A DNA stretch of 64,000 nucleotides, from assembly GCA_047967505.1 (NCBI GenBank), contig CM106538.1. One strand, given 5' to 3'. Positions 14,906 to 54,900 of the stretch are shown here, one piece after another. Position 1 is the first letter of the stretch; each line of letters begins with the position of its first letter. The DNA is from Dipteris shenzhenensis. Taxonomy: Eukaryota. The notes below the pieces were generated by a model. The model ran no database searches, was not told where the DNA came from, and saw only the letters and a list, made by a program, of their open reading frames with translations. Made by a program: the position numbers and the translations under genes.

Positions 14906-15060
14906 CACCCGACTACATGCAAAATGCCACCTGCATACAATGACCAACAATGTCATCCAACCTCACGGGTGACCTATAAATGAGCTAGATGCGAGTGTTC
15001 ACAAAATAAGAGCTTGCAGCAGCAGCATAGACTGAGCACAAAAATTGTCCATGCATACAA

Positions 15061-19700: not shown

Positions 19701-21511
19701 GAGCATTTCTGTGATACACATGGGATTAAGAGGGAGCTCACATCCCCTTGTACTCCAGAGTAGAATCTAGTTGTAAAACAGATGAACCGCACCATTCAGG
19801 AAAGGTTCCAATGTATGCTTTCCAATGCAAGTCTTTCTCATGGTTTTTGGGCTGAGGCAATGAAGACTGCAGTGCATGTGATCAATAGATCACCTAGCAG
19901 GAGTTTGGATGGTGGTATTCCTAAAGAGGCATGGAGTGGAAAGAAGCCCTCTTACTCTCATTTGTGTATATTTGGTGTGAGGCATATGCACATATGCCAA
20001 AAGACTTCCGAAGCTAGATCCTAAATCTAGGAAATGCATCTTTCTGGGTCATGGTGAAAGTGGAGAGATGGGCTATCGTCTCTGGGATCCAAAAGTAAAG
20101 AAAATCATATGAAGCCATGATGTGGTCTTCAATGAGAAGAAGATGCATAAGACACCCATGAGGGATGTGGAAATGAGGCCAAGATGTGAATCCACCTGCA
20201 TATGTTGATAGACAACAAGCTGTCCATGCATCGAATGTGTAAGAAATGGTGCCACCAGGTACTCCCATAGGTACACAATCAAGGGCAGATGATGGAACAT
20301 CTATTGGTGGCAATGATGAGCCAAATTTGACTGATATGCAGGTGGGACAGCAAGCTGAAATTCCCTTGATATTGGGTTGCAGTGGATGCTTTACAGACCA
20401 TTTGGATGCATTGTGATCCTTGTTGGATACACTGATAGGCCCACATTGCCGAAAGAACATCTAGAGTATCTAGACCGCCTGAGAGATTTGTTCCAAGGAT
20501 AGAGTATGTGATGCTTACTGATTGCGGGGAGCCTTCTTGCTACAGAGAGGCTATGATGCACGAGAATCAGCACAAGTGGGAGTATGCTATGCAATCAGAG
20601 ATGAGTTCACTCATAAAGAATAAGACTTGGAACTTGGTTTCTTTGCCACATGGAAAGAAAGCATTGCCATGTAAATGGGTCTACAAGATGAAGGTCACAC
20701 AGGTGATGATGTGCCTAAGTACAAGGCCCGTTTGGGTCGCTAAAGGGTTCAAGAAAGAGAAGGGTGTGGACTTTGATGAGATATTCTCTCCGGTTGTGAA
20801 GATGATCACACTTAAATGTGTACTTGGACTTGTGGCAATAGAGGATATGGAGCTTATGCAGATGGATGTCAAGACAACTTTCTTGCATGGGGATTTGCAT
20901 GAGGAAATTTACATGATACAACTGGAAGGCTTTGAAGAATATGGCAAAGAGCATTTGGTTTGCAAGCTGAAAAAGAGTCTCTATGGCCTTAAGCAAGCAC
21001 CTAGAGAATGGTATCACAAGTTTGATGCTTTCATTCGGTCTCAGGGTTTCAGAAGAAGTGAGATTGATCACTACCTCTACACTAAAAGGGCTCAGGATAA
21101 TAGCATGATACTCCTGGCACTTTATGTGGATGATATGTTATTGGCTAGCAAGAACACTTATGAGCTTGATGTATTGAAGGCCAAGTTGCATGAGGCCTTT
21201 GACATGAAAGATTTGGGACCTCTAGGTCATATTCTTAGTATGCGCATCACGCATGACCAAAGTAGGAAACTCCTTTGGCTTTCATAGAAGGAGTATGTTA
21301 CAAAAGTGTTGCAGCATTTCAATATGGAGGGGGGGAAGGGAGTAAGTACTCCATTGCCTCTATATGTGAAACTGAGTCAGGCAGATAGTCCCAAATCAGA
21401 TGAGGAGAGGACCATGCTGGCCAAGGTTCCTTATGCATCAGCGATTGGGAGTCTTATGTATGCTATGATAGCTACTAGACCAAACATTGCATTTGTAGTG
21501 GGAGTTGTTAG

Positions 21512-22218
21512 TGTTAGATATCAATGCTCCACTCTCGTGTAACTACGCGGGAACCAGCTGAGGAGAAGGCATTTGGGTAGCTAGGTTATAGGGTAGGTCC
21601 TAGTTTGAACACTAGATGGGGGCCATGTGTGGCCTGATGGGTGGATGGCTTCAGATAGAATTGGCACACTACCAACTAGGCTACATGCAAGTGTGGGAAG
21701 GCATCTCTTGACTGACTGCACTGAGGGTAGATGGAGCATTTTTCGAGGTAGCCCACTCTCGAGTTGCGGGGCCCGTTTGGAGCCTCAGACGATCCCGAAT
21801 GGCTCTGGGGTGAATGGAGATCGTAGGTTAGTTGCTCTATTTTGTGCACCGGTTCTATCGTATGGTCGGTGGCCTATTTCGGGACGGACCCCCAGTCGAC
21901 CATTTTGGGCAGACTGGGTCGGTCACCCAATTGAGCCTAACCGACTACGACTGGTGGCTATATAAGAGCAAGCTCGTGAAGCCCATTTCATCACTGGCTA
22001 CAGCAACCCTGATTCCTTAGCATCCAACCTTTGTCTTCTACTGTTTCCAGCATGCCATCGAAGCTTCTTTCACAGGAGCGCATGGTTGGGAGGCAGCGCC
22101 ATCTATTGTATCAGATCTACAGTAATCAAATTTTTGATTCTCCATACTATCTTATTTTCTCTCTTGTGTACGAGATCCTGTTATCTGTTGAGCATAGACG
22201 TTGTATTATTTTCTTACA
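21512..22218 (+). repeat. 5' LTR of Copia D
   Basis: TGTTAG...CTTACA, followed by the PBS. It differs from the 3' LTR by many substitutions and indels. Confidence 0.92.
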
Positions 22219-25200
22219 TGGTATCAGAGCCTGGACTCTAGCAAGAAGATTTGGTAGTGTGTTTCTATTTGCAAGCAGATTGTGAGAGATGGCCCAGCCC
22301 GCAAGACTGTGAATCCCACTGTTCGGTGAAAGCGGAAAGTTGGATGGCTCGAGACACTGATACTGGGGTGGATGTGAGGCCGATTGTGAGACCAGATCCA
22401 ACCAATGCAGGAAATAGATAGTACCAACTGCGGATGAGATTCTCGCATGGACAAGAAGAAATGCAGATGCGTTGTGTTCTATTTTCTGCAGTGTTAGTGA
22501 TTCTATCATGGCATTAATTCAACATGTCACCATAGTGGAGGAGGCATGGATGGTCTTGAAAAATCTACGAGACCACAAATCAGATGCGGATTCAAAATCT
22601 GGAGACTCAACTCATGAACCTGAGTCTGAAGCGACAGAGAAGTTCATCACCAAGGTGAGGAATCTGCGCGATCGGATGATTGCGATTGGCATCACCATCA
22701 CCAGCGAGAATCTAGCACGAAGGTGCATATGGATTCTCCCACCAAAGTACGACGGTCTTATTACGACACTGAATATGCAGAATAGAAATCCGCCCCTCAA
22801 CTTTGAGGATTTCAGCGTGATGCTTCTGGAGGAGGAGATGCGTCAAAAGATGAGGACTGGAGAAGTTTCGGCTTTTTGGACCGGATCAAAGAAAGGTAAG
22901 GGTAAGGACTCTGGTAACCCATCTTCTTCTGATGATAAAAAGAGAAAGAAGAAGATCAAGTAATTCTATTGCAACAAGGTAGGGCACAATCAGAATAAGT
23001 GCCGACGAAAGAAGATTGCAGATGAGAAGAACGGAGTAAAGAAAGAGTCTAGCAACAGTGTGCAGGCAGTACTAGTAGAGCTGTTCGTCACAATTGAGGA
23101 GATTTGCATGGAGGTAGTTCATGTACCTGCAGATGAACCGTGGATCATTGACAGTGGTGCATCGCACCACATGACCAGTCAGAAGGATTGGTATACCTCT
23201 CTACAGTCGGTCGGGAATGACATCCTGATAGCAGTCAGCAATGATGTAAAATGTCCAGCAAAAGGAAAAGGTACGATTGCTCTCAAGTCAGATGGAGTTG
23301 TAAAACAGTTGTCTGATGTTCTTTATGTGCCAGATATCAAGAGGAACTTATTGTCTGTTTCTGTGATCACGAATCGGGACCTCAACGTTCAATTCGATAA
23401 GAATGGTGCACAGATTCTGGATCTTCAAGGGAAGGTCATTGGTAAAGGTACACGGTGCAACAACATTTACGAACTCTCAGCTTTCAGTGCTCGAGCGGAT
23501 GTGAAGAACACTAAGCTGTGGCATGAGAGGTTTGGTCATCTAAACCTTAGTTCTTTGAAGGAGATGCATAAAAGTGGAATGATTACAGACCTACTAGAAA
23601 TTTTAGATCTGCCCGATGTATGTGAAACTTACATGATGGGCAAGCAGCATCGGCAGCCCTTTCCTAAAGAGGCCAGCAGGGCAAAGGCTCCTCTACAGCT
23701 CGTTCACATGGACCTTTGCGGAAAGATGGAGACGGAAGCTTTGGGTGGTTCCTACTACTTCATGATGTTGATCGATGACTACAGTAGAAGGATATGGATA
23801 TACTTCCTAAAGACTAAAGACGAGGCTTTTAGTAGGTTCAAGGAATGGCATGTAATGGTCGAGAAAGAAATGGGGAGGAAGGTGAAGAAGTTGAGATCAG
23901 ATAAAGATGGAGAGTTCACATCAACTGAATTCGAAAGTTACTGCAAAAGTCACGGAATCAAGAGGCAGAAACATACATCACAGCAAAATGGAGTAGCAGA
24001 ACGCAAGATGCGCATCATCTGCAAAATGGGCCGGAGTATGATGAAAGGGAAAGATTTGCCAAAGACTTTCTGGGCTGAAGCATGTAACACTGCAGTTTAC
24101 ATCCTGAATCGTAGCTACACAAAGGCTGTGAATGGGATGACTCCACTGCAAGCCTTTTTTGGTAAGAAACCTTTAGCTGCACATTTTAGAGTTTTTGGAT
24201 GTGACTGTTTTGCGCATGTCCCTAATGCTACCCATACCAAATGGGAACCGAAGAGCTGGAAGTGTATTTTCTTGGGCTATAGTGAAGAGGTGAAGGGTTA
24301 CCATCTCTATAACCTTGTTACCAAGAAGGTAATTGTAAGTCGCGATGTGGTCTTCTCAGAATAGCCGCATCAATTGGAGGAGGATGCTTCCTTCCCAAAC
24401 AACCAGGACCAAGATATCCATCTAGTACCACCACCAACAATAGATCAAACTCCCCCAAAAAAGAAGATGAAGAAGAGCCTGTAGAACCACAACGGCAACG
24501 GCCATTCCCGAAGTGGGTAAAGTAGCTTTTGGATGGAAGAGAACCTCTAGCCATTGAGGAGGAACCATCCGAACACCGCCGGTCCAACAGATTAGAGGAG
24601 CAAAGAAGGGCGCAAGAACACTTGGTCAACTATGCTTTGATGATAGAAGTGATCCGTGCTGATGAACCCAAGTGTCTTGAAGAGGCACAGGGCGATGATA
24701 GGTGGATGGAGGTTATGCAGTCGGAGTATGGCTCCATAATGAAGAACAACAATTGGGACCTTGTGGATCAACAACCAAAATGCAAGGTAATTGGAACCAA
24801 GTGGGTGTACAAGACCAAGTACAAGTCCGACGGCACGTTGGATAAGTACAAGGCTCGACTCATGGCAAAAGGATTTGCACAGGTACATGGTTTTGATTAT
24901 CAAGATACTTTTGCTCCCACAGCTTGATTGATCACAATTCGCAGTGTTTTGGCTTTAGCTACCTAGGGAAGTTGGCCCGTGTTTCAGATGGATGTGAAAT
25001 CCGCCTTTCTGAATGGAGATCTCAAGGAGGAGGTATACGTGGAACAACCACTAGGTTTTGAGATCCCCGGTTCAGAAGGTAAAGTCTGCAAACTGAAGAA
25101 GGCACTTTATGGGCTGAAACAGGCCCCACGAGCATGGTACCAGTGAATTGAAGCCTACTTTCTGCAAAACGGGTTCAGGAGGAGCCCATCTGATGCAAAT

Positions 25201-26217
25201 TTGTATATCTTCAAAGAAGGAGACAGGTGTATGATCGTGGTCCTTTATATGGATGACCTTGTCATAACAGGGAACCATGAAGAGAAGATCTCGCAGACGA
25301 AGCATTTGCTAGGAAGAGAGTTTGAAATGACAAACCTTGGACTGATGCATTTCTGTTTGGGGATTGAAGTTTGGTAGAAGCTGAAACAGATCTTCATTTC
25401 ACAGCTGAATAATGAAGTATGCTGGAGAGATACTGAAGGCTTTTGGCATGGCTGAGTGCACAGTTGGTACCCCTATGGAGGTTGATGCGAAGCTCTCAAA
25501 CGAGGATCATCACCACTGGTGGACGAAGCGAAGTATAGAAGGCTTGTGGGCAGCTTGATTTACCTGTGCAACACACGGCCGGACATTAGTTTTGCGACTG
25601 GTGTACTAAGCAGGTTTTCCAATAAGCCCCGGGAGAACCATTGGAGGGCAGGGATGCGGGTGCTGAAATACATCAAAGGCACACTTGATTATGGCATCAC
25701 CTATACCAAGGGCAACATCTTGACTGGAATCTGTGACTCGGATTGGGCAGGAGACATGGACAGCAGGAGATCAGTGACAGGGTACTGTTTCTCACTTGGA
25801 TCTGGAGTTGTGTCATGGGTCAGCAAGAAGCAACCCACAGTTGCTCTTTCTTCTACCGAGGCCGAGTACAAATCTGCATGCTTTGCTTCTTGCGAGGTAG
25901 TGTGGTTGAGGAGGACTTTGGGGGACATGGGTGTAGTGCAGAACAAGCCTACGCAGTTATCATGTGACAATCATAGTTGCATGGCGATTGCAAAGAACCC
26001 GGTGTTCCACGCTCGCACAAAACACATTGAGATTCAATATCACTTTATACGTGAGCTCATCATGGATGGAGAGGTCGACTTGGTGTATTGTCCGACTACA
26101 GAGAATGCTGTGGACATCTTCATGAAGGCTCTTTGAAGAGACTTGCTGGAGAGGCATCTTCATCGACTTGGCATTGGGCCGAAAAAGTAAGTTCACTTGC
26201 GGGACATTGAGTGGGGG

Positions 26218-26936
26218 TGTTAGCTATCAATGCTCCACTCTCGTGTAACTATGCGGGAACCAGCTAACTCTACTTGTAAGCCCCCCATATGACGAGAAGG
26301 CATTTAAGTAGCTAGGTTATCCGGTAGGTCCTGGTTTGGACACCAAATGGGGGCCATGTGTGGCCTGATGGCTAGACGACTTTAGATAGAGTTGGCACAC
26401 TATCAACTAGGCTACATGCAAGTGCGGGAAGGCATCTCTTGATTGATTGTGATGAGGGTAGACGGAGCGTTTTCTGGGGCGTTTTCTGGGACCCATTTGG
26501 AGCCTCAGATGATCTCGGATGGCTCTAGGGTGAACGGTAACCATAGGTTAGTTGCTCTCTTTTGTGCACCGGTTCTATCATATGGTCGGTGGCCTATTTC
26601 AGGACCAACCACCAGTCGATCGTTTTGGGCGGACTGGGTCGGTCACCCAATTGAGCCTAATTGACTACGACAGGTGGCTATATAAGAGCAAGCCCGTGAA
26701 GCCCATTTCATCACTGGCTACAGTAACCCTGATTCCTTAGCATCCAGCCTCCGTCTTCTACTGTTTCCAGCACGCGCGACGCTTCTTTCACAGGAGCACA
26801 TGGTTGGGAGGCAGCGCCATCTATTGTATCAGATCTACAGTAATCAAATTTTTGATTCTCCATACTATCTTGTTTTCTCTCTTGCGTACGAGATCCTATT
26901 ATCTATTGAGCACAGACGTTGTATTATTTTCTTACA
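26218..26936 (+). repeat. 3' LTR of Copia D
   Basis: TGTTAG...CTTACA, preceded by the PPT and followed by the TSD. Confidence 0.92.
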
Positions 26937-27008
26937 GTTAGAGGTATATGGCTAATCTAGGAAAGAGGCATTGGGAGGCAGTTAAGTGCATCATGAGATA
27001 CATGAAGG

Positions 27009-27369
27009 TGTTGAAATGTGCAATGTCCAATTGATGGGATATTGTGTTGGTACCCTAGAGGGGTATGTTTATGGGAATTATGGTAGCCACACAAGAGGAT
27101 GTGGACTACATGAATGGATGTGGGACATTGGTCACCACAAGTTGGATGTGGATCAGAGGATGCCACACAGTAGGCTTATGCCTTGAGACTCTCTATATAA
27201 GAGGTTTATCATTGTATTGTTTATCAAGCATTGGAATAGATTGGTTGAGTGTTGCCTACGTTGTTGTCTCCCCGTTATGGATTTTCTTGTATGGTTCAAT
27301 CCTCCATGATTGTTACACTGATCTCATGTAGCCCTAGGCTTAGTGGCGGTCTCATTCAGTTTCTTAACA
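27009..27369 (+). repeat. 5' LTR of element E
   Basis: TGTTGAAATG...TTCTTAACA. It contains a CTATATAAG TATA-like box. Confidence 0.93.
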
Positions 27370-27876
27370 TGGTATCAGAGCTGGTAGTCCACAAGCTTAG
27401 GCAGATTAGTGTGTTTTCTTTCATGTCTTTTGTATAGAGAAAAATAATGGCAACACTCTATCATTAGGGAGAGTTTTGTGTGAGATTATGCCTTTTCTGG
27501 ATTTGGAGTAGCCCATGAAAGAGCCAGGCTTGAATTGAAGTTTTCTACTATGAGAAAAGAAGACTGATGTAGGTTATTGCTGCAAAAGATGTTGCTGCTT
27601 ATGGAAGATGCAAAAGAAGATTGTTGCTAGGAGGAGATTGCATTGCTTAAAGAACATTTTGCAAAGTTTGAAGAAGAGAAGGATACGCTGGTCGGAGAAA
27701 AAGAACAGGTCTTGAAGCAAATGAAGGACTTCGAGAGGAAGACGGAAGAGCTACAGGAGGAGCTTCTTATGCTACGGGAGCAAAGAAAGTGCCTCGAAGG
27801 AAAAAAAAACTGGAGGTCGTAGTGAAGATTGAAGCTGCCCAAGGAGGAAGCTACTGTCATCATTGAGTTGCAGCAA

Positions 27877-27960
27877 CGAAGCTGCATAGCCCATTCCAGA
27901 GAGATTATACAACTTGATATCGGAGCGCATCTTGTATCGATTCACAACAGCAACAGAAAG
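27877..27960 (-). pseudogene. 3-ketoacyl-CoA synthase (KCS/FAE1 family) fragment inside element E
   Basis: LSVAVVNRYKMRSDIKLYNLSGMGYAAS matches the KCS active-site motif (N(R/H)YK(M/L)RxxIKxxNL(S/G)GMGC(S/A)A). The catalytic Cys position reads Tyr. Confidence 0.8.
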
Positions 27961-27978
27961 TAGCCGAAGCAACACAAG

Positions 27979-28056
27979 GAGCTGCATCAAATCTTTCTCG
28001 ACATGGTTGTGCTTGTAGAAGCCCAGGGAGAGCAGCTGAACGACATTCAACATCAC
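27979..28056 (+). pseudogene. Syntaxin (SYP1/KNOLLE-type Qa-SNARE) fragment inside element E
   Basis: [26 protein letters not shown] matches the SYP1 SNARE motif [24 protein letters not shown]. Confidence 0.85.
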
Positions 28057-29247
28057 AAGAACAAGTAACGATCTGTAGAAAAGAGAACAGTGGCTGATAG
28101 CTATGCTGAAGCGGCAAAGATAAGCACCACGACAAAAGGCGAGCACGAGAAGAAAGGTGCAAAGTAGGAGGTGAAAATCCGGGCTGCGAAGTAGAGAAAG
28201 ATCGAAAATGAGTAACAGTCAATGAAGCAAGAAAGCTGCTTGATGCTCTAGAGGCTATGGTGAACAGAAAAACATTCGAACCCAAGAATTCAAGCTCAAG
28301 TATTGCGCTTCTGGACTGCTGTTGATCCGAACACTACCGAAAACAAAGTGGGCTTCTTGCCAACTTTGCGATGTGGAAGATCAGTCATTCAATGGCAATA
28401 TCTATATTGCCAGTGAGGTCGAACATGTGAATGGTGTTGTCAACTCCGCCAATGGCCAACACAGGTCCGGAAGCGGTGATGCATTTGATGGGGCCAATGT
28501 GTGTAGGGTGCAAGAAGGAGGGCTGGAGATGGAGCTGCTTTTGCTGCTATTGGAGACGCCATCCCCACAGGAAGCGCTCGTATGAAGCCACCACCAGCTT
28601 CATGGGCATACCAGACACCACCCACAGCAACAAAGACGGAGAAGACATTGCTCATGGGGAGCCTCATGACTTGAGGAAGAAGACGGGGCTGAAACTCTAA
28701 GGCTTCAGAATCCTATCGTTATTTTGTGTGGTTCACAGGCCCGTTTGAAAAATGTCCTATCTCTTTTGTTAATGTGGTTCAAAAAGAAACCCTTATGAAG
28801 GTATGGTGCATATGAAAACCCCTAGTGTACATGAAAATTTTTCTTGCGCCTTGAAAAAATGGTGCAGCATTGGCTGGTATGGAAAGCTGTGGATATATAT
28901 TTAATTGTGACCACATGATTTGTCGGTGCCCTGCCCTTGCATTGACATAAAATGGATGGAATTTTCTCTCACCCATGTTTATGAGTGTACATTGATGATG
29001 CACTACTTGGGTTGGTTCCTTTTCCCGAACACATGGGATGTTCAAAAAGCACTTGGGTGTCCCGCCCACACAGCATGGTGTGTAAAGTGGATGATAAGGT
29101 GTCTAGGTTGCTAGACACATGCACACACATTTGTTGAACACTCCAATTTGTCATTGAGGGGGAGTGTTGAGAGAGTGAGTTTGGCAATGCCAAATCATTG
29201 GGGGTGAGAGGTGAGATGATCACATATGATTGTACATTGAGGAGGGG

Positions 29248-29608
29248 TGTTGAAATGTGCAATGTCCAATTGATGGGATATTGTGTTGGTACCCTAGAGG
29301 GGTATGTTTATGGGAATTATGGTAGCCACACAAGAGGATGTGGACTACATGAATGGATGTGGGACATTGGTCACCACAAGTTGGATGTGGATCAGAGGAT
29401 GCCACACAGTAGGCTTATGCCTTGAGACTCTCTATATAAGAGGTCTATCATTGTATTGTTTATCAAGCATTGGAATAGATTAGTTGAGTGTTGCCTACGT
29501 TGTTGTCTCCCCGTTATGCATTTTCTTGTATGGTTCAATCCTCCATGATTGTTACACTGATCTCATGTAGCCCTAGGCTTAGTGGCGGTCTCATTCAGTT
29601 TCTTAACA
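29248..29608 (+). repeat. 3' LTR of element E
   Basis: Near-identical to 27009-27369. Confidence 0.93.
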
Positions 29609-31104
29609 GAAGGGTACCAAGGAGGTGTGTATCTGCTTTGGCAGAGGAGAGATGTGTGTATTTGGGTACACAGATTCCGACTATGTAGGGCATGTGGATA
29701 GTAGGAGATCCACTTCTGGGTTATGTGTTCACCTTTGCAGGTGGTGTAGTGTTGTGGATGTCTCGTGCACAGAAGTGCATTGCTTTGTCTACCACAGAGG
29801 CTGAGTATGTTACAGCCACAGAGGGCTGCAAGGAGGCTATATGGCTTGATCGACTAGTGAGAGATTTGGGGATTCATACAGGTGTACCAACATTGCATAG
29901 TGATTTGATTCCATGAGTGCTATTGAGCTAGCATGGAATCCGGTCTTTCATGCAAAGACCAAACACATTGAGGTCAGGTACCATTTTATCAGGGAGGTAC
30001 TTGAGGACAAGCACATAGAGCTTGTCAAGGTTCATACAGATGATAACCTTGTAGATATGCTGACAAAGAGTCTACCTAGTCAGCGGTTTGAGTATTGTCG
30101 TGTATTGATGGGCATTGGATAGTATGCTCATTGGTTATTCTCCCTTAAAGGCACATTGGCCTTTAAGTGGGAGGTTGTGGGGGTTAAGGCCATTGTATCT
30201 TAACCCCGGTTATGTACAATACTCAAACACATATATATATGGATGAAATAGAAGATTAGGGTGTCCTTCACCCACCAAAACTTGTGTCTCTCAAGCTCCC
30301 TCTCACCCTCTCAACTTTCGTTGTGTCCTCACACCAATCACCAGTAGGCGAGGTTCCTGATTCGAGCTTGTCCAAGATGTGCCATCGTTGTTGCAAAGAA
30401 GCTCCTCATCCTTCTCCAAGGTTAACATGAAAAATGACATGTGGTAGATAGAGGTTAACTGAGATAAGATTAGATTAGTTCACTACACTTGGGTTAACCT
30501 ACCGTGGCAGCTAGCTTAGGTCAAGATTTACCTTGGGTTAACTCTATGATTAGTTAAAAATGACCATGGTTAAGTATATTGCCTTGGGTTAACTAAGTTG
30601 AAGTTAAAAGATTGCCACATGGCATAGGGCCACCTAAGCACATAGCCCCTACCAAGCATAGTTTGGAGTGCAGCATATGAACAGCCTCTACCACATCATC
30701 AAAAGCCCGCTTCTTCACAAAAGCTTCAACAAAGCATAACTTGCAATCCAAGAGGAATTTGCACATGGTCCAAAAATGAAAAGTAGTCATCTTTTTTAGC
30801 TCTACATGCCTGTTAGATCAGAATCATTGTTAGCAATTAGACACTACCAATATTGAAAGAAATCAATTGGTAAGACCTTTGAAACAAATGACAAATCAAT
30901 GCATGAATGCAAAAAGCATGCCAAAAGCACAAGTGCATGAGATGACCATAGCAGAGAACATGGCATCCACACATAAAGCATTAAGGCACATGGAAGAACA
31001 AAGCATAATGCATCATGATACATTAAGCAAAGAAGTGAACGACATCAACAACATGTATTGAGAAGCAACATCCTTGCCACCTTCAGCCCATATGTTTGTG
31101 AATC

Positions 31105-31565
31105 AAACCTGACCACCTGAGAGTACCATGTAAGCACCCAGGGGAGGATTTGATCTTGTAATACCCACACTTGACCACCTTAAGTAGCAATGCATGCACT
31201 AAGGGGAGGTGATGGATTTGTAACTCACATTTGACCACCTTGCAATAGCCGATGGATCATGGCACCAAGGGGAGGTGTTGAGATATGGTGCCATGAGCAC
31301 ATAATTAGAGGCTAAGTATGTGCTAAGGAAAGAATCAAAGTAGCCACCCTAGGATGTGGAATACATGATGTGAAGATGTGGATTGAGGATATCCACAAGA
31401 AGAGATGTGGATCAGAGGATCCCACATGTGTTGACTATTGAAAGGGAATTATCTATATAAGAGACCTATCATGTATGGTTGAATATAGCACAGTTGGAAT
31501 AGATTGAGTATTTCCTACGTATGTCTCTCTCATGGAGTTTCTTCTATGGTTTGATCCCGCTTGAT
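31105..31565 (+). mobile_element. 3' end of an LTR element related to E: tandem PPT units and a truncated LTR
   Basis: Three GACCACCT...GCAC..AGGGGAGG units are followed by TGTTGAG at 31276. The LTR shares ordered blocks with the E LTR (GTAGCCAC, GATGTGGATCAGAGGAT, CTATATAAGAG, TGGAATAGATT). Confidence 0.7.
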
Positions 31566-32830: not shown

Positions 32831-33699
32831 GGAAGGTAACTAGTACTGAGAGATGGGCAAAAGAAAGATTGATTCTCATGCATTAGCAACTACAATGCCT
32901 AAAAGTCAATCCTCTTTGATCCTTTCTCAAAGAATCTCGTCCAGTAGCTCCTTCTAAGCTCCAAACTCCTTGCATCATTCATGGGTCGCTCAAAACATTG
33001 ATTGCCTTGGCTTCCTGAATGAAATGATTTCAGATCGTGGGAGAATCTCGGATGAGAGAGGAAGTGGCGAGATTTGAAGGAGAAGGTAGGTTGAATCTCA
33101 TTCAAAAATCTTGAACATTTTGAAAGAATGAGAGTGACATGGGAGGGAAATGCAAGTAGAGAAGAGAAGTGACAAGATTTTGGTGTGAGTCCATCCCATG
33201 AGAGGGAGAATAGAGAAAGAAGCTTCTCGCTCAAGAACCAACAGGAAATTTGAAAAGAGGGTTGGATCCAGTAAAGAAAAATCTGAAATGGTGATAAAAA
33301 ATGAGGGGGCAGTAAGAGGAATGAGAGAGAATGAAAGGAGTGTGGTAGTTGGATGGGAGGATTTGGTTTTAGGTCAAATGGTACAAGTTTGGTTGAGAAA
33401 CTAGGTTTCTCAGTTTGGCTATAGTTAAAAAACGTGATGGGAGAGTTGAGGTAGCAAGTGGGTGCTCCACCTCATTGTTTGGGCCATTGAATAAAGAAAT
33501 AGATAAGTCAGGCCACTTCCAATATTCTATTGCCCTCCACCAACCAATATTCTATTGGGTTTTATTCACCTTATTCCATGTCACCAGCCCAAGGGCTCCC
33601 TTACAAGGCCCTTTTTGAGTCCAAATTTTTTGTAATGCAATAGTGTTTTTGGGTGTTCTCTTGTTTCCTTTGTAGTGCTTTTATGTTTACCACTCCATC

Positions 33700-34559
33700 C
33701 CCATTCATTCTCCTCTTCTCCTCCCCTTCTCCCTCTCTTCTCCCCTCTCCCCATTGAGAAAGACTTGGAGAGCGTTCAAGTGACCACCTCTTCCACCCTT
33801 TGGATTTCCATCCGTCAAGCTTTTTTTCTTCTCTTTTTTCCCCCCCCTCCCATTTCCACCACCCCCCTTCATCTCCACCACCCCCTCCCCCCTCTCCATC
33901 TCCATCTCCACTACCCCCTCCTCCCCTCCATCTCCACCTCCCCCTCCCCCTTCCCCCTTTCCCCCCTCCATATCCCCCCTCCCCCCTCCATCTCCACCAC
34001 CCCCTCCCCCCTCCCCCCTCCCCCCTCCATCTCCACCACCCCCTCCCCCCTCCATCTCCACCACCCTCTCCCCCATCCCCCCCTCCATCTTCACCACCCC
34101 CTTCCCCCTCCCCCCTCCCCCCTGCATCTCCACCACCCCCTCCCCCCTCCCCGTTTCCCCCCTCCATCTCCACCACCCCCTTCCCCCTCCCCCCCACCAT
34201 CTCCACCACCCCCTCCCCCCCTCCATCTTCACCAACCCCTTCCCCTTCCCCCCCTTCCCCCTCCATCTCCCCCTCCCCCTCCCCCCTCCCCCCTTCATCT
34301 CCACCACCCCCTCCCCCCCTCCATCTCCACCTCCCCCTCCCCCCTCCCCCTTTCCCCCCTCCATCTCCACCACCCCCTCCCCCCCTCTATCTCCACCTCC
34401 CCCTCCCCCTTCCCCCTTTCCCCCCTCCCCCTTCCCCCTTCCCTCCCCCCTCCCCCCTCCATCTCCACCACCCCCTCCCCCTTTCCCTCTCTCTCTTTCT
34501 TTCTTTCTCTCTCTCTCTCTCTCTTTCCATCCCCCTCTCTCATTCTCTCTCTTTCCCTC

Positions 34560-34619
<60 letters not shown>

Positions 34620-35140
34620 ATTTCTCTCTTAATCTCTCTCTCTCTCTCTCTACCCCCCACCCCCACCCCTCTCTCTCTCTCTCTCTCTCTCTCCCTCCCC
34701 CCCCTCGCCGGCTACTCCCTAACTAAACAAATCCCTACCTAAGAAAGGGCCTTAAGGCCCAAGCTGCCATAGGCCAGTGCCCGCAGCGATGGCCATAGGA
34801 CGGCGCGGCACCCATCCATCCGCCCTACCCTCCCCACCCCTTCCCGTCCTCCCCTCCCCCCCCTTTCCACCACTCCCCTATGCACCCTTCGTGTCTGCCC
34901 CACTCTCCCCACCCCTTCCCGTCGCTCCCCTCCCCCCCTTCCCATTGCTCCCTTGCGCCCCCCTTCCCGTCGCTCCCCTCCCCTCCCCTTCCCATCGCTC
35001 CCCTCCCCCCCTTCCCACTGCTCCCTTGCGCCCCCCTTCCCGTCGCTCCCCTCCTTTCCGCCCCCCCTTTCCCCCCTGCTCAAAAAAAAAAACAACAACC
35101 CCCCTTGCGCCGCCGTCGAGGCAGCCCCCCTAAGTTCTTT
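33700..35140. repeat. Polypyrimidine C-rich low-complexity tract: minisatellite plus (CT)n microsatellite
   Basis: Recurring CCCTCCATCTCCACCACCCCCT units (33840-34480), (CT)n runs (~34490-34695) and CCCCTTCCCGTCGCTCCCCT units (~34900-35060). Confidence 0.95.
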
Positions 35141-35154
35141 AAAAAAAAGGAAAA

Positions 35155-35500
35155 AAAACCCTAACCTACCTAACACTAACCCTAGGTTAGGTTAGTTAGG
35201 CTATGTTCACCTAGGTTAGGTTAGCTTAACAAAGGTTAGATTAGCTTAACCTCGGTTAGCTTTAACTTAGGTTTGATTATCTTTAACTAGGTTACTTTAA
35301 CTGTTAGTTAATTACACTAACTGGACCATTAGGTTAGTTTAGTCTAACTAGGTAGGTTCACCCTAGGTTACTTACTGACCATTAGGTTAGTCTAACTAAC
35401 GTTCAATTAGTAACTAACCATAGTTAGTCAACTTAGTTACATTAACCTCACAGCTATAGTAACTCGGAGGATCTAGGTAAGTTAACCTGACTAGAGTCAC
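35155..35500. repeat. Degenerate CTAAC/GTTAG (TTAGG-like) low-complexity repeat with mixed orientation
   Basis: CCTAACCTACCTAACACTAACCCTAGGTTAGGTTAGTTAGG, followed by many GGTTAG/CTAAC variants. Confidence 0.8.
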
Positions 35501-36345
35501 TTGGTTCCAACCCCTCAGTTGGACTTAGAGTCCATTCACACCACCCTTAGGACCCCCCTCCATTAAAAGCAAATTTTACCCCTACTTTAACCCCTCGTAT
35601 CTCATCTGTTTGGGACCCAAGCTGAACCCTGTTTGAACCTAGATTTCACACACAGAAACATCACATTATAGGGTATTTTTCTAACCCATTGCACACCATT
35701 TCAGCAAACCTAGCACTCGCTCATTCGTGCCTCCATGTGGGCCTCATTTTACACAAATTTGCTCATATCTTCACGTCGTGACCTTCGATTAACGATCCAT
35801 CTGCCCCGGCACAATTTCGTACACATGTAGGACAATCTTAGGCACATTATTAACACGACAGCCCCTACACAAACTAACACCACTCTAACCCTCCAACCAC
35901 AACTTCATCCACACCCGCACTTGTGGCAAAGACACCCTTGGCAAATCTCGCCCAATCTGCATGCAGCTACGTTCCAACCAATGCCTTCGACTCCAATGCC
36001 TACCACATCTGCATACAACTCTGATGCAACCACTACCCCCACCAATCCTCTATCCCAATTCCCCCCTTGAAATTCAATCACTCCCTTTAACTCCTCCACG
36101 CCCCAACATGGCTGGATGCCATCACGACAATGATGGGGATATCGACCTTGAAGCAGAGGCTCACAATTTCTTTAATCACAGAAATAATAAAAATCAAGGC
36201 AGATGCCCCTTGAGAAAACTGGAACTTCCCAAATATAATGGTAGGGGAGATCCAGCCCGATTCCTTCAGCATTTTGATGCCGCACGCCGAGCAAGTAGAG
36301 ATCAATCCCATGAAACCAAGGTGGCTTGGTTTCCCATGACCTTAA

Positions 36346-36698
36346 TGTGAAGATTGTGGGAGAGAGGGAAGGAGTCTCACTTGCGGCTTTCTCACATGCA
36401 CAATGGGGGAATACACACAAAGGTGGAGGCTGAAAATAGTTTTCCTCTTCTTAGTTGTGAAAGCCAAAAGAACTCTAGTACAAAGAAAATAGAAGAACCC
36501 TATATGTGGGTCTCAAACCAAACTCAACTAACTAAGGTGGCATACTAACTGAGCCACGAACTAGTGTAGATAAGGATAGCTGTCATCCAGCTATTATTCG
36601 TGGGCGGTGTACCAACCGCATCTCCAGCTAACAAGTCGGTGACATAAGTACACAACGGTCACCCTGGCATATCGCGAGTGGAGCTCAATATCTCAACA
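36346..36698 (-). repeat. 3' LTR of Copia B2
   Basis: TG...CA termini, adjacent to the PPT and the TSD. Confidence 0.95.
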
Positions 36699-39600
36699 CT
36701 CCCCCTCGAGCTCAATCCCAATTCCTGCACACCAAGCAGGTCTCTCAACTTGCGCAGCTTCTCTGCGCCCAATGCTTTGGTGAAGATGTCAGCTACCTGA
36801 TCCTCTGTGCTGACATAAACTAGATCAATAAGACCTAGTAAAACCTTCTCCCGCACATAGTGATAATGCACCTCAATGTGCTTTGTTCTAGCATGAAAGA
36901 CTGGGTTCTTTGCCAAGTGTATGCTGCTCATGTTGTCACAATAAATGACAACTGGCCCATCTGTAGACTGATGCATATCATAGAGTAGCTTATGCAACCA
37001 AGCTACCTCACATGCAGCCATTGCTGCACCCCTGTACTCAGCCTCTGTGCTCGACAAAGGCAACTGTAGGCTGTTTCTTGCTGCTCCAAGTGACTGCAGC
37101 ACTCCCAAAAGAGAACACATATCCACTGGTAGATCGTCTATCTGAAATGCTACCAGCCCAATCAGCATCAGTGTATCCATGCAACTGTATCTGAACCCCA
37201 GCCTCATAAAATAGTCCATACTGCAATGTGGACTTCACATACCTGAGTATGCGTCTAGCTGCATCCAAATGCGGTTTCCTTGGAGCTTGCATAAACTGAC
37301 TTACCAACCCAACAGCATAGCTCAAATCTGGCCTGGTAATAGTCATGTAAATTAAACTTCCTACTATGCGTCTGTACATAGTAGGGTCTTCCAGAAGCTC
37401 ACCTGCATCTGTGCTCAGCTTCACATTTTGCTCCAAAGGAACTGAAATAGGCTTACAGCCTGTCATCCCATATTTGGACACCACGTCCAATCCATACTGC
37501 CTCTACAAGAGCTGTATCCCACTTCGTGATCTAATCACCTCAATGCCCAAGAAATAACACAGCTCTCCCAAATCCTTCATCTCAAACTTCTGCCTCAATA
37601 GCATTTTCACATGAAGGATATCTTCATCACTATCACCTGTGATGATCAAATCATCAACATAAATGACCAGCAGCATAATCCCTTTCTCTGTTTTTCTCAC
37701 ATAGAGTGAGGCCATATGTCTGTGCATACCCCTTGACAACTAATCTTGCCTTGTATCTATTCACAGAACCATCTGCATTGTGTTTGATCTTATAAACCCA
37801 CTTACAACCAATTGCATTCTTGCCTTTAGGCAACATGTAGCATTAGCATCCAAGGCATCCATTTCTTCATCCATGGCTTTCTCCCATTTTTCATTTCCCA
37901 TGGCTTGCTCAAAAGAAGTGGGTTCTGGTTCCTGTATCACTTTGACCATATAGGCATAGTGAATGGCTGTAAATCCATCATATTTCAGCCTATCCACAGG
38001 ATACCTAACCCTAGTAGACCTGCGCAAAATAGGCTCACTTCCAGGTGCTCTCAAAACATCCCTGGTCTTCCTTACTCCAGGTGTAACAACAGAAGGAATA
38101 CCCAACTCATCATCAATGCTCTGTTCTGAGCCACTGGATTCACCATCCACACAAGAGTGACCTGCATTCACATCAAACATGGGCTGATCTACCTTCTCTT
38201 TTCCTTTTCGTGATACCTGCGTACCACTCTCTGCATTGCTTTGAGGGGATTCTCCTGATCTCAATTTGCCTGTCCATGGCGAAGTATGTGAACCACTGGT
38301 AGAGGACACTCCAGGTCCACTGATATTTTGTGATTGCTGCTGTGCATTCTGTGCAGCATTACCATTTTGTGCATCTACATCAATCATCACATTTACTGGT
38401 TTATACCAGCTGCTCATCTCATAAAAAACAACATCTCTGCTCACTGTGAACTTATGTGTAGAAGGGTTATAGCATCTATACCCTTTCTGCTGCAGAGAAT
38501 AACCAATAAAGATGCACTTCTCAGCTTTTGGATCCAACTTGGACCTCAACTCATCTGGCACATGGACATAGGCAATGCAACCAAAAATCTTCAAATGAGA
38601 AATATCTGGTTTCCTACCAGTATACATCTCCTCTGGCGTCATGCCATGTATTGTTGCAGTGGGAGTCCTGTTCATTATATAGACTGCTGTAGCAACTGCT
38701 TCAGCCCAATAATAATCTGGTAGATCTTTTTCATTTAGCATAGCCCGAGATACCTCTCCAATATGCCTGTTTTTTCTTTCTGCAATTCCATTTTGCTGTG
38801 GGGTATGACTGCATGAATATTGCTGCTTTATACCATGCTCCTGCAAGAACTCATTTGAGAGGTACTCTCCCCCTCCATCTGACCTTAGGCATTTTATTTG
38901 CAGGCCTGTTTCTTTTTCAACCATAGCTTTGAAAGCTTTGAAGTGCCCAAACACTTCACTTTTCTTTTTCATAAAATACACCCACAGTTTTCTGCTGAAG
39001 TCATCAATAAATGTGACAAAATAGTGACAGCCTCCAATAGATGCAGCTTTTGTAGTCCACACATCAGAGTGGATTAATTCCAATGGCTTTTTACTCTCTT
39101 GAACATGCCTAGGAAAAGGTTTCCTTGCCTGTTTCCCAAATTGACAGGCTTCACAAACCTTGTGCATTTCTGCAACCTTGAATTTAGGCAATCCTGCAAC
39201 AATATTTTGGGCTTGCATTGATTTAAGTCGCTGTATATTAACATGACCAATGCGTTTGTGCCAGATATCAATATCTGCAACTACATCAGTCCCATGTGCA
39301 AACATCGCTGCACTCAATTCAGGCATGTCTGCATCCAACGTAAACATCCTGCCTTTCTTCTTTCCTTTTGCTATCAAGCGACCATTATTTTTCATATCCT
39401 CAACAAAGCATCCATGAGGATTAAATCTGACCTGCAAGCCCTGCTCAACCATTTGACCAACAGAAACCTGGTTCTTGGTGATGTTCGGGACATGAAATAC
39501 ATCAGACAAGTATTTCTTTTTACCATCCTGCATAGACAAAGGAATTTTGCCAATCTGCACAATAGGATGTGCAGTATCATCACCAGTCTCCACAAATCCT

Positions 39601-41200: not shown

Positions 41201-41212
41201 GCTCTGATACCA
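41201..41212 (-). promoter_or_regulatory. Primer-binding site (initiator Met tRNA) of Copia B2
   Basis: TGGTATCAGAGC on the minus strand, directly after the 5' LTR. Confidence 0.9.
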
Positions 41213-51967: not shown

Positions 51968-54900
51968 TGAGAGATCTAGACAATGGAAGTGGAACAAAAT
52001 AAGGTGAGAGAGAGGGAGAGCTAGAAGAGAGAGCCACACAAGTTTTGGTGGGTGCAAAACACCCTAATCTTCTATGTCATCCATATATATATATATGTGT
52101 TTTCATATTATACATAACTAGGGTTAAGGTAAAGTGGCCTTTAACCCCCACAATCTCCCACTTAACAATGTGGCTTTAAGGGAGAACAACCAGTGGACAT
52201 ACTATCCAATGCCCATGAATACACAATAATACTCAAATAACTGACTAGGTAAACTCTTTGTCAGCATATCTGCAAGGTTATCATCTGTATGAACCTTGAC
52301 AAGCTCTATATACTTGTGCTCAAGTACCTCCCTAATGAAATGGTACCTAACCTCAATGTGTTTGGCCTTTGCATGAAAGAACTGATTCCATGCTAGCTAA
52401 ATAGCACTCATGGAATGTTGGTACACCTGTATGAGTCCCCAAATCTCATCTCTGTGGCTGCAACAACATACTCAGCCTTTGTGGTAGACAAAACAATGCA
52501 CTTTTGTGCATGACACATCCATGACATTGCATCACTTGCAAAGGTGAACACATAACTAGAAGTGGATCTCCTGCAAGGGTGAGCACATAACTAGAAGTGG
52601 ATCTCCTACTATCCACATGCCCTACATAGTCTGAATTTGTGCACCCAAGTACACGCATCTCTCCTCTGCCAAATCAGATACACATCTATCTCCTTGGTAC
52701 CCTTCATGTATCTCGTGATGCACTTAACTGCCTCCCAATGCCTCTTTCCTAGATTAACCATATATTGGCTAACAATTCTTCTGAACATGGGAATCGTTTT
52801 AACGATTTGAAGAATTCAATGCCATAGAAGCCCAGGGAGAGCAGCTGAACGACATTCAACATCACAAGAACAAGTGACGATCTGTAGAAAAGAGGAACGA
52901 AGGCAGTAGCACCGACCAAAGCGTAAGCCGAGCAAAGAGTGAAATAGACACCATCTTGCAGGGAGGTAGAGTTGTTGATAGTATCCCACCAGCTACTGTC
53001 GAGGAGCTACCGAGGAGCCATGGATGGGGAAATGCAGGCGCCCTTCTACATTGCAGGAGGGAGTTCCTCGCGCAGATCTTGTAAGAAATAAGTAAAGAGA
53101 AGTGTAAGCTATGAGAAAGGCACTGAAGAAGGCTCGCTGAAGAAGAGCATAACCGCAGATTGAAGGAGAACTCGACATGATGGCATGAGAGCAGCTGTAG
53201 TAGGAAAAAGTTTGATGGTAGACGATTACAAACATGGAGCCAAAGTCCTTAGGGTTGGAACCCTACCTATTACAGCTACATGCACATTATCCTTACTTTA
53301 TGCACCTTAAAAATCCCTTTTGTACAAGAAATTTTTTCTTACGCCTTGAAAAATTGGCGCAGCATTGTCTTGTATGGCAAATGATGGACATGTTGTACTA
53401 TGACCGAGATTACTATGGGTGCCCTGCCCTTGCATTGGCATAAAATGGATGTAATTTTCTCTCACCCATGTTTATGAGGGTCCTCTACCCGAGCCCACGG
53501 GTGCTCAAAAAGATATTTGATTGTGGTGTGCAGGAGTAGTGTACATTGATGATGATTGCAAATGCAATGTCCGATCTAGTAGCTATCATAGCATACATAA
53601 GACTCCCAACCACTAATGCATAAGGAACCTTGGCAATCATGGCCCTCTCCTCATCTGATTTGGGACTATCTTCCTAACTCAGTTTCACATATGGAGGCAA
53701 TGGAGTACTTATTGCCTTCCCCCCCTCCATATTGAAACACTGTAACACGTTTGTAACATACTCCTTCTGTGAAAGCCAAAGGAGTTTCCTACTCCGGTCA
53801 TGTGCGATGCGCATACCAAGAATTTGACTTGGAGTTCTTTGAAAAAAAAAAGAATATGACTTGGAGGTCCCAAATCCTTCATGTCAAAGGCCTCATGCAA
53901 CTTTTCCTTCAATGTATCAAGCTCATAAGTGCTCTTGTTAGCCAAAAGCATATCATCCACATAAAGTGCCAAGAATATCAGGCCATTATCCTTAGCCCTT
54001 TTATTGTAGAGGCAGTGATCAATCTCACTTCTTCTAAAACCTTGGAACTGAATGAAAGCATCAAGCTTCTGATACCATTCTCTAGGTGCTTGCTTAAGGC
54101 CATATAGACTCTTTTTTAGCTTGCAAACCAAATGATCTTTGACCTTTTCTTCAAAGCCTTCCAACTGCAGCATGTAAATTTCCTCATGCAAGAAAGCTAT
54201 CTTGACATCCATTTGCATAAGCTCCATATCCTCTACTACCATAAGTCCAAGTACGCATCTAAGTGTGGTCATATTTACAATCGAAGAGATCTCATCAAAG
54301 TCCACACCCTTCTCTTGCTTGAACCCTTTAGCAACCAAATGGGCCTTATACTTAGGCACATCATCACCTATGACCTTCATCTTGTAGACCCATTTACATG
54401 GCAATGCTTTCTTTCCATGTGGCAAAGAAACCAAGTCCGAAGTCTTATTTTTCATGAGTGAATTCATCTCTGATTGCATAGCACACTCCCACTTGTGCTG
54501 ATCCTCGCGCATCATAGCCTCTCTGTAGCAAGAGGACTCCCCACAATCAGTAAGCATCACATAGTCTTCCCTTGGAACAAATCTCTCAGGGAGTCTAGAC
54601 ACTCTAGATGACATTCTCTAGGGAATTTCAGATTGTTTTCCACCTTCATATCACCCACATTTGGCTCATCATTTCCACCAATAAATGATCCATCATCTAC
54701 CCTCGATTTTGTACTTGTGGGAGTACCTGGGGGCACATTTCCTACACATTTGGTGCATGAACAGCTTGTTGTCTATCAACATATGTGGGTAAATTCACAT
54801 CCTGGAAAGTGATTCTCCTCATTTCCACATCCCTCATGGGTGTCTTATGCATCTTCTTCTCATTCAAGACCACATCATGGCTTCATATGATCTTCTTTGC

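What the first reader, a model, noticed from the sequence alone, without database searches (positions are those of the whole stretch)
27009..29608. Young non-autonomous LTR element loaded with short fragments of unrelated host genes (Pack-like LTR element)
Seen: complete cis-machinery (361 bp LTRs with 3 differences, Met PBS, PPT, GAAGG TSD) and no gag/pol. The interior is a patchwork: a coiled-coil-like stretch (~27630-27810, EEIALLKEHFAKFEEEK...), a KCS active-site fragment on the minus strand (27877-27960), a syntaxin SNARE fragment on the plus strand only 18 bp away (27979-28056), a WD40-like GGVDNTIHMFDL piece (28415-28450, minus) and more coding-like pieces to ~28700. Known: multi-gene capture is typical of Pack-MULEs and Helitrons, and LTR elements can transduce genes. 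Inference: a chain of ~80 bp mixed-orientation pieces in a recently mobile LTR element suggests serial capture by template switching or break-repair filling. It could shuffle exons or produce siRNAs against donor genes.
Basis: partly seen in the sequence, partly recalled or inferred. Interest (0 to 1): 0.78.

Follow-up and report, generated by a model that had tools for sequence, protein, structure and literature searches.

The report
Small retrotransposon carrying host gene scraps
This is a recently inserted, protein-less plant LTR retrotransposon whose middle is a mosaic of short pieces of unrelated host genes, a real but already known kind of gene-fragment capture.

Summary
Window 27009-29608 is a complete 2.6 kb LTR element. 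It has 361-bp LTRs with 3 mismatches, TG..CA ends, a TGGTATCAGAGC primer site, a purine tract and a GAAGG duplication. An empty paralogous site lies in the window, and four sequencing runs hold the empty form. It sits in an old Copia pol and has no detectable gag or pol.

The ~1.1 kb centre is a mosaic. It holds a KCS fragment (Pfam 1.9e-8, minus strand), a syntaxin SNARE fragment (8e-5, plus), a WD40-like repeat (weak, minus) and a coiled-coil-like stretch. About half of the centre is unassigned. The leader and 3' region are very high-copy; the centre is low-copy and differs in composition.

New here: the cargo belongs to a family with exchangeable modules. An LTR-less relative at 52793-53549 shares the syntaxin junction at 70/71 identity and carries a THH1/TOM1 fragment (1.5e-8).

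How the fragments were captured is not settled. I favour break-repair filling followed by trans-mobilisation.

It is a new member of a known kind (Bs1-like). Interest is modest.

The parts
27004..27008 (.). Left copy of the 5-bp target-site duplication, GAAGG
   Evidence: The paralogous empty site has a single GAAGG. The empty-site joint is present in 4 of 4 runs.
27009..27369 (+). 5' LTR, 361 bp, TG..CA ends, with a TATA-like TATATAAG at 27194-27201
   Evidence: 358 of 361 bases match the 3' LTR. The sequence was read. Copy depth in the runs is very high. The TATA assignment is by eye.
27370..27381 (+). Primer-binding site TGGTATCAGAGC, the initiator-Met tRNA type (the tRNA assignment is recalled)
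   Evidence: The same 12-mer follows the 5' LTR of the autonomous Copia at 22219.
27382..27612 (+). Family leader: high-copy, CpG-free, GC about 0.38
   Evidence: Depth is in the thousands in X1 and X8 and falls off after about 27607.
27629..27813 (+). Coiled-coil-like coding piece of unresolved origin (host gene or family-intrinsic)
   Evidence: DUF7491 at 8.3e-5, below the cut-off. 27629-27804 lies in a 3123-letter contig of an RNA library. An X3 contig runs from 27370 to 27806.
27862..27960 (-). Fragment of a 3-ketoacyl-CoA synthase (KCS/FAE1) gene around the active-site motif, with Tyr at the position I recall as the catalytic Cys
   Evidence: PF08392 at 1.9e-8, profile positions 121-153 of 290. 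An X8 contig departs at 27871 and, read by hand, continues in the KCS frame.
27976..28056 (+). Fragment of a syntaxin SNARE motif
   Evidence: phmmer against PDB: 22 of 22 hits are syntaxins, best 7.8e-5. There was no Pfam hit.
28057..28085 (-). Remnant (about 6 codons plus tail) of a THH1/TOM1-type fragment, identified only through the relative at 52866-52894
   Evidence: The block 28015-28085 is 70/71 identical to 52824-52894. The relative continues into a PF06454 hit at 1.5e-8.
28086..28410 (.). Unassigned cargo piece
   Evidence: It behaves as one unit in the runs: X2 contig 28079-28422, and 28107-28410 in a 2634-letter X8 contig. No significant Pfam hit.
28411..28547 (-). WD40-repeat-like piece
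   Evidence: PF00400 at 0.024, below the cut-off. PDB hits are WD40 proteins. An X3 contig spans exactly 28411-28547.
28557..28710 (.). Unassigned GC-rich cargo piece (GC 0.55)
   Evidence: X3 contig 28557-28710. No relatives found.
28787..29238 (+). Family 3' region: high-copy, no coding similarity
   Evidence: Depth rises to thousands from about 28820. 28815-28988 is 81% identical to 53310-53481. Pfam found nothing.
29239..29247 (+). Polypurine tract GAGGAGGGG abutting the 3' LTR
29248..29608 (+). 3' LTR
29609..29613 (.). Right copy of the target-site duplication, GAAGG
52793..53549 (+). LTR-less fragment of a relative of the element's interior. It lies in a paralogous Copia pol (minus strand) with about 6 host bases missing and no duplication. 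It holds half of the syntaxin piece, a THH1/TOM1 N-terminal fragment (52887-52997, minus) and the family 3' region.
   Evidence: The borders were read by eye against host Copia A.

Best explanation
What it is (about 0.9). This is a 2.6 kb non-autonomous LTR retrotransposon with Ty1/Copia-type cis signals. It is the youngest layer of a three-level nest: an old Copia pol, into which a 5.4 kb autonomous Copia at 21511-26936 inserted, and this element. It keeps the LTRs, primer site, about 240 bp of leader, about 450 bp of 3' region and the purine tract of a very abundant family. Its gag-pol is replaced by a ~1.1 kb mosaic of 30-330 bp pieces. At least three pieces come from unrelated host gene families: KCS (antisense to the element), syntaxin (sense), and a THH1/TOM1 remnant (antisense). 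There is also a WD40-like repeat (antisense). Because it encodes nothing, it must have been copied and integrated by proteins of an autonomous relative. This is inferred from the intact cis signals, the 5-bp duplication and the 99.2% identical LTRs.

How the mosaic arose (about 0.45, inferred). A break inside a genomic copy removed gag-pol. The gap was patched by repair synthesis that copied short stretches from several ectopic templates in either orientation. The patched copy was then amplified in trans. Copy-choice recombination between co-packaged family RNAs later exchanged modules among copies.
For: Structure and insertion.
- LTRs, primer site, purine tract and duplication are all present.
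- An empty paralogous site lies in the window, and the empty-site joint is in 4 of 4 runs.
- The nest is shown.
- No TE protein was found: 25 of 59 frames scanned by Pfam, and tblastn gave a best E of 0.25.

Cargo.
- KCS at 1.9e-8; syntaxin at 7.8e-5 with 22 of 22 hits being syntaxins; WD40-like.
- The centre has GC 0.44-0.55 with 2-5 CpG per 100 bp. The CpG-poor leader and 3' region have 0-2.
- Depth falls from thousands to tens or hundreds between about 27608 and 28718.

Family with modules.
- The relative at 52793-53549 shares the syntaxin|TOM1 junction at 70/71 identity, but its 3' region matches at only 142/175 (Fisher p 7.6e-5). It carries THH1/TOM1 at 1.5e-8.
- A 1911-letter contig in X2 is collinear with the element but skips 27885-28079 and 28422-28839.

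For the DNA-level origin.
- Orientation alternates along the five oriented pieces: + - + - -.
- The pieces are short and abut each other.
- Homology to two different relatives overlaps by 7 nt at 28079-28085.
- The relative at 52793-53549 is itself an LTR-less insert with host bases lost and no duplication. This shows that break repair in this genome has used this family as a template.

Enrichment. Among the 150 longest non-low-complexity frames outside the element, chosen from 230, only 3 hit non-TE Pfam families, and one of those is the relative's TOM1. That control used frames of 81 aa or more, whereas frames down to 25 aa were scanned inside the element, so the comparison is only rough.
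Against: - No donor gene was identified. 'Host gene' rests on protein-family similarity of 27-37 residues per piece.
- Searches of the large protein collections found nothing: KCS frame; coiled coil; one spurious tandem-repeat protein.
- About 540 bp of the centre is unassigned.
- The WD40 and coiled-coil matches are below Pfam cut-offs. The syntaxin frame has no Pfam hit.
- The coiled-coil piece is contiguous with the primer site at equal depth in X3, so it may be part of the family and not cargo.
- No autonomous partner with these LTRs was found, either in the window or in the 60 metagenome loci.
- For the mechanism: piece borders come from contig ends, which are fuzzy by a few bases. The 7-nt overlap is a single case. 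Antisense transcripts could also give mixed orientation at the RNA level.
Confidence: 0.6

Rival explanations
1. RNA-level capture. During reverse transcription inside the particle, the enzyme jumped repeatedly from the element RNA to co-packaged host RNAs and back. This replaced gag-pol with cDNA of several transcripts, as proposed for Bs1 and for retroviral oncogene capture.
For: Abnormal template switching between unrelated co-packaged RNAs is the mechanism given for LTR elements in the review PMC13317346 (passages read). The modular exchange between relatives fits copy choice. One KCS border, 27871, lies inside the reading frame and not at an exon end followed by an intron (hand-read). Contigs from RNA libraries hold the coiled-coil piece and 28107-28410.
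Against: Three or four of the five oriented pieces are antisense to the element. That would need antisense donor RNAs each time. No poly(A) remnants or spliced junctions could be shown. RNA-library contigs may contain DNA (caveat stated).
Confidence: 0.3
2. En-bloc acquisition. The mosaic was assembled elsewhere, for example as the cargo of a Pack-type DNA transposon or Helitron, or as an older repair patch. It entered the LTR element in one step.
For: Multi-gene, mixed-orientation patchworks of short fragments are typical of Pack-type elements (review PMC13317346; otherwise recalled). The shared syntaxin|TOM1 junction shows that at least two pieces travel together.
Against: No terminal inverted repeats flank the cargo. 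Only two weak inverted pairs (71-74% complementary) involving the LTR and the leader were found. Relatives differ piece by piece, not as one block.
Confidence: 0.08
3. There is no captured gene material. The interior is decayed element sequence and the protein matches are chance.
For: The pieces are short. Two of the five named matches are below family cut-offs. Searches of the large collections were empty.
Against: KCS at 1.9e-8 and TOM1 at 1.5e-8 are above Pfam gathering scores. The syntaxin frame hit only syntaxins (22 of 22). Composition and copy number both change at the cargo borders. There is no similarity to TE proteins.
Confidence: 0.02

Closest known systems
Bs1 of maize, an LTR retroelement with fragments of three host genes (as described in review PMC13317346, passages read; the original papers were seen only in its reference list)
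   Same: An LTR element that lacks its own full coding set and carries segments of several unrelated cellular genes between intact LTRs. None of the segments is a full ORF.
   Different: Bs1's pieces form a hybrid ORF that is transcribed and translated. Here every frame is interrupted, the pieces are shorter (about 30-330 bp), more numerous and mostly antisense, and relatives carry different module sets.
Genome-wide exon capture by plant TEs, including Ty1/Copia LTR elements (PMC13477047, passages read; rice and sorghum surveys as cited in PMC13317346)
   Same: Short coding fragments inside TEs. That paper reports that on average 13.68% of host TEs hold two or more fragments, and it gives Copia examples.
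   Different: This element holds at least 3-5 fragments in 1.1 kb, which puts it in the multi-fragment minority. The supplements of that paper, which list examples, could not be seen.
TRIM and other non-autonomous LTR elements, for example Veju with foreign inserts (review PMC13317346)
   Same: No coding capacity, conserved primer site and purine tract, mobilised in trans, able to pick up foreign sequence.
   Different: With 361-bp LTRs and 2.6 kb total it is larger than classical TRIMs as I recall their definition. The interior is mostly captured genic sequence.
Pack-MULE and Pack-CACTA elements
   Same: It works like them: a non-autonomous mobile shell that multiplies a patchwork of fragments from several genes in mixed orientation.
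   Different: It is a different transposon class. It has LTRs, a primer site and a 5-bp duplication, and no terminal inverted repeats.
Filler DNA at repaired double-strand breaks in plants (recalled; Wicker et al. 2010 is cited for template switching in PMC13477047)
   Same: Short pieces from several sources, in either orientation, with microhomology at junctions. The insert at 52793-53549 looks like such a patch.
   Different: Here the patch lies inside a mobile element and was then amplified.

Membership tests
LTR retrotransposon | Two direct long terminal repeats with TG..CA ends | tested here: met
   361-bp LTRs, 358/361 identical, starting TGTTG and ending AACA.
LTR retrotransposon | Primer-binding site next to the 5' LTR and polypurine tract next to the 3' LTR | tested here: met
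   TGGTATCAGAGC at 27370-27381 and GAGGAGGGG at 29239-29247. Complementarity to the initiator-Met tRNA is recalled; no tRNA gene lies in the window.
LTR retrotransposon | Short target-site duplication made by integrase | tested here: met
   GAAGG on both sides. A single GAAGG at the paralogous empty site. The empty joint is in 4 of 4 runs.
Ty1/Copia superfamily | pol domain order with integrase before reverse transcriptase | not testable with these tools
   The element has no pol. Only the primer-site type, shared with the autonomous Copia at 22219, points to Copia. The autonomous partner was not found.
Non-autonomous LTR element | No gag, protease, integrase, reverse transcriptase or RNase H | tested here: met
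   25 of 59 interior frames scanned by Pfam with no TE family hit. tblastn of 11 TE proteins from the window gave a best E of 0.25.
TRIM (terminal-repeat retrotransposon in miniature) | Very short LTRs and a total length of about 1 kb or less (definition recalled) | tested here: not met
   LTRs are 361 bp and the element is 2600 bp.
Gene-fragment-carrying LTR element (Bs1-like) | Fragments of two or more unrelated host genes between the LTRs | tested here: met
   KCS at 1.9e-8 and syntaxin at 7.8e-5. A TOM1 remnant is identified through the relative. WD40-like is weak.
Gene-fragment-carrying LTR element (Bs1-like) | Fragments fused into an expressed hybrid ORF | tested here: not met
   The longest interior frames are 148 and 142 aa on the minus strand and 113 aa on the plus strand. 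None joins two identified fragments in frame. Expression could not be tested.
Pack-MULE / Pack-CACTA | Terminal inverted repeats and a matching target duplication around the cargo | tested here: not met
   No terminal inverted repeats around the cargo. The ends are LTRs with a 5-bp duplication.

The most novel reading that the evidence does not exclude
The element belongs to a family of protein-less Copia shells that act as modular shufflers of gene fragments. Cargo modules are gained by repair patching and are exchanged between copies at each round of reverse transcription. LTR-driven transcripts carry antisense KCS, TOM1-type and WD40 pieces, which feed small-RNA pathways that dampen the donor genes. 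One KCS-like transcript contig in an RNA library shows only 2 listed differences from the piece, which would be close enough for small-RNA targeting.
Probability: 0.08. Interest if true: 0.6.

Novelty: new member of a known kind. Interest (0 to 1): 0.3.

Why it matters
It is a clean, datable example with intact ends, an empty site and a relative in the same window. It shows an LTR element multiplying a mosaic of host gene scraps.

With the host genome in hand, three features could help decide between repair patching and reverse-transcriptase jumping as the source of such mosaics: the mixed orientation, the module exchange between copies, and the LTR-less patch at the second locus.

The phenomenon itself is well documented in plants, in Bs1 and in recent genome-wide surveys. 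The case therefore adds detail and does not establish a new principle.

Tried and rejected
- No whole genome is held for this window. Donors, all family copies and the autonomous partner could therefore not be retrieved.
I then scanned single frames.
- The search for homologous proteins in 'longer' mode found nothing for the KCS frame (E<=0.01) or the coiled-coil frame (E<=1). Matches of about 35 bits from short pieces cannot pass in a library of that size.
- The search of protein representatives with the 90-aa frame 28443-28712(-) gave one hit at 4.4e-4. It is a tandem-repeat protein and I judged it spurious.
- The protein atlas gave no usable hit.
- Metagenome scans: a 22-mer across LTR end, primer site and leader gave 0 hits. 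A 22-mer of LTR end plus primer site gave 60 loci, but blastn of the whole element found only one 41-bp match (L048). These are other Copia families.
- Earlier-findings look-ups were empty.
- Many air-metagenome runs hold small shares (0.13-0.16) of the words.
- In the runs laid, parts without cover are not used as evidence of absence.
- No tRNA gene lies in the window against which to test the primer site.
- A simple motif search did not locate the frame behind the NIF hit.
- I considered and dropped an assembly-duplication artefact, because the duplication and the empty sites argue against it.
- I considered and dropped a Pack-MULE or Helitron inserted into an LTR element, because the cargo has no terminal inverted repeats.
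Full report
**The structure is real.**
- Reading 26900-29720 and a self-comparison show two 361-bp direct repeats at 27009-27369 and 29248-29608. They differ at three positions: 27206/29445, 27243/29482 and 27280/29519. They begin TGTTG and end AACA.
- The 12-mer TGGTATCAGAGC follows the left repeat directly (27370-27381). A purine run, GAGGAGGGG (29239-29247), abuts the right repeat.
- GAAGG flanks both ends (27004-27008 and 29609-29613).
- The 12-mer has 5 matches in the window at up to 1 mismatch, against 0.35 expected. One exact copy lies just inside the 5' LTR of a neighbouring autonomous Copia at 22219. That this 12-mer pairs with the initiator-Met tRNA is recalled. The window has no tRNA gene to test it.
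- Three differences in 361 bp give a Jukes-Cantor distance of 0.0084. That is about 0.3 to 1.9 My, depending on the rate assumed (rates recalled).

**The insertion is proven by empty sites.**
- The flanks read through as a Copia pol frame. A paralogous Copia on the minus strand near 52690 carries the same sequence with one GAAGG and no insert.
- When four public runs were laid on 26800-29800, a joint 27003->29609, with five letters fitting either side, was found in 4 of 4 runs.

**The surroundings are a nest.**
- Host Copia A has RVT_2 at 5.9e-59 in 20439-21284. It continues at 26942-27008 and 29614-30292.
- It was first split by a 5.4 kb autonomous Copia at 21511-26936. That element has LTRs about 85% alike, a primer site at 22219, and gag, integrase and RT domains.
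- The element studied here inserted later.

**The element encodes no retroelement protein.**
- Of 59 stop-to-stop frames of 25 aa or more that overlap the interior, I scanned 25 against Pfam. None hit a gag or pol family.
- tblastn of 11 TE proteins translated from the window against 27382-29238 gave nothing better than E 0.25.

**The interior has three zones.**
- The leader (27382 to about 27612) and the 3' region (about 28787-29238) are very high-copy in the runs. Summed depth is in the thousands in X1 and X8. Both zones are CpG-poor with GC 0.36-0.48.
- The centre (about 27613-28786) drops to tens or hundreds in depth. It has GC 0.44-0.55 and 2-5 CpG per 100 bp.
- The shell therefore belongs to an abundant family, and the centre is foreign to it.

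**What the centre holds.**
- *KCS.* The minus-strand frame 27775-28218 hits FAE1_CUT1_RppA at 1.9e-8 (34.5 bits, cut-off 27). The match is over 27862-27960, profile positions 121-153 of 290. It covers the Gly-Met-Gly motif, with Tyr where I recall the catalytic Cys.
- *Syntaxin.* The plus frame 27964-28065 has no Pfam hit. phmmer against PDB returns 22 sequences, all syntaxins, best 7.8e-5, aligned over 27976-28056.
- *WD40-like.* The minus frame 28388-28546 matches WD40 at only 0.024 in Pfam. PDB gives WD40 proteins, for example WDR18 at 6.6e-4. I treat this as likely but not proven.
- *Coiled coil.* The plus frame 27631-27819 is coiled-coil-like: DUF7491 at 8.3e-5, below the cut-off.
- *Unassigned.* 28086-28410 and 28557-28710 could not be assigned.
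- *Borders.* Piece borders are supported by contig ends in the runs: 27806/27807, 27871, 28079, 28410/28422, 28547, 28557 and 28710.
- *The 27871 border.* A contig from an RNA library departs from the element here. Read by hand, its loose end continues in the KCS frame with residues that fit the family. The border is therefore inside the coding sequence, not at an exon end followed by an intron. This is a hand reading of 30 letters and only a hint.

**The cargo is family property and modular.**
- blastn of the element against the window found a second place. 28015-28085 matches 52824-52894 at 70/71. 28815-28988 matches 53310-53481 at 142/175. 28984-29000 equals 53538-53554.
- The difference in identity between the two blocks is significant (Fisher p 7.6e-5). 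This argues for exchange of modules, not simple descent.
- The shared block runs from the middle of the syntaxin piece across its junction into the next piece. In the relative, that next piece continues into a THH1/TOM1/TOM3 domain fragment (PF06454, 1.5e-8, 52887-52997 minus). The element here keeps only about six codons of it.
- The relative at about 52793-53549 has no LTRs and no duplication. Compared with host Copia A by eye, about six host bases are missing. It looks like a repair patch copied from a family member.
- In run X2, a 1911-letter contig is collinear with 27453-27807 and 28079-28422 but skips 27885-28079 (the KCS and syntaxin pieces) and 28422-28839. Another X2 contig continues after 28085 like the relative in the window.
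- Homology to the two kinds of relative overlaps by seven letters at 28079-28085.

**Control for enrichment.**
- There are 253 frames of 70 aa or more in the window. I dropped 23 that were low-complexity or inside the element, and took the 150 longest of the remaining 230.
- Pfam at 1e-4 gave 14 families. Eleven are retroelement domains. The other three are MCM (window 3-380), THH1/TOM1 (the relative) and NIF.
- Frames inside the element were scanned down to 25 aa, so the comparison is rough. Even so, three to five gene families in 1.1 kb is well above the background.

**Mechanism.**
- Shown: an intact shell, a recent integrase-type insertion, no coding capacity, a mosaic centre, and relatives with other module sets.
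- Inferred: mobilisation in trans by an autonomous relative, which was not found.
- For the origin of the mosaic I favour repair patching of a broken genomic copy (about 0.45). The oriented pieces alternate (+ - + - -). They are short and abut each other. One junction shows a 7-nt overlap. The same window holds an LTR-less patch made from this family.
- Reverse-transcriptase jumping onto co-packaged host RNAs (about 0.3) is the textbook route for LTR elements (PMC13317346, passages). It probably explains the later module exchange, but it needs antisense donor RNAs for most pieces.
- En-bloc uptake of an older patchwork (about 0.08) is not excluded.

**Known or new.**
- Bs1 of maize carries segments of three host genes. 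TRIMs and other LTR elements take up foreign sequence. Surveys in rice and sorghum list over a thousand captured sequences (PMC13317346, passages).
- A 2026 comparative study reports very many captured exon fragments per genome, with 13.68% of host TEs holding two or more, and gives Copia examples (PMC13477047, passages). Its supplements could not be seen.
- This is therefore a new member of a known kind. It is notable for the number and mixed orientation of its pieces and for the evidence of module exchange.
- No hybrid ORF exists in this copy. Small-RNA effects on donors remain untested.

Noticed in passing
window 52793-53549: About 757 bp derived from a relative of the element's interior sits in another Copia pol (minus strand). 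It has no LTRs and no target duplication, and about 6 host bases are missing. It looks like filler DNA from break repair. It carries a THH1/TOM1 N-terminal fragment (PF06454, 1.5e-8).
   Followed up: partly
window 21511-26936: An autonomous Copia element with gag, integrase and RT domains. Its LTRs are about 700 bp and about 85% alike, its primer site is at 22219, and GTTAG flanks both sides. It is inserted in the same host Copia only about 70 bp upstream of the element studied. The insert at 52793-53549 lies within about 10-20 bp of the equivalent host position.
   Followed up: partly
window 3-380 (+): An open frame at the very start of the window hits the MCM P-loop domain at 5.7e-23. It is either an exon of a real MCM gene cut by the window edge or another captured fragment.
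   Followed up: no
window, place not determined: One of the 150 long frames outside the element hits the NIF (NLI-interacting factor-like phosphatase) family at 3.7e-5. A motif search did not locate it.
   Followed up: partly
window 31332-31565: A stretch 71% identical to the middle of the element's LTR (27075-27310). It is possibly an LTR of a related family. No primer site lies next to it.
   Followed up: no
window 33600-35200: A long C/T-rich low-complexity tract with overlapping short-period repeats that is open in several frames.
   Followed up: no
window 15000-19770 and 36300-40700: Two copies, 91-96% alike, of a large retroelement on the minus strand with frames of 599 and 685 aa. A third partial repeat lies at 41207-41653.
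   Followed up: no
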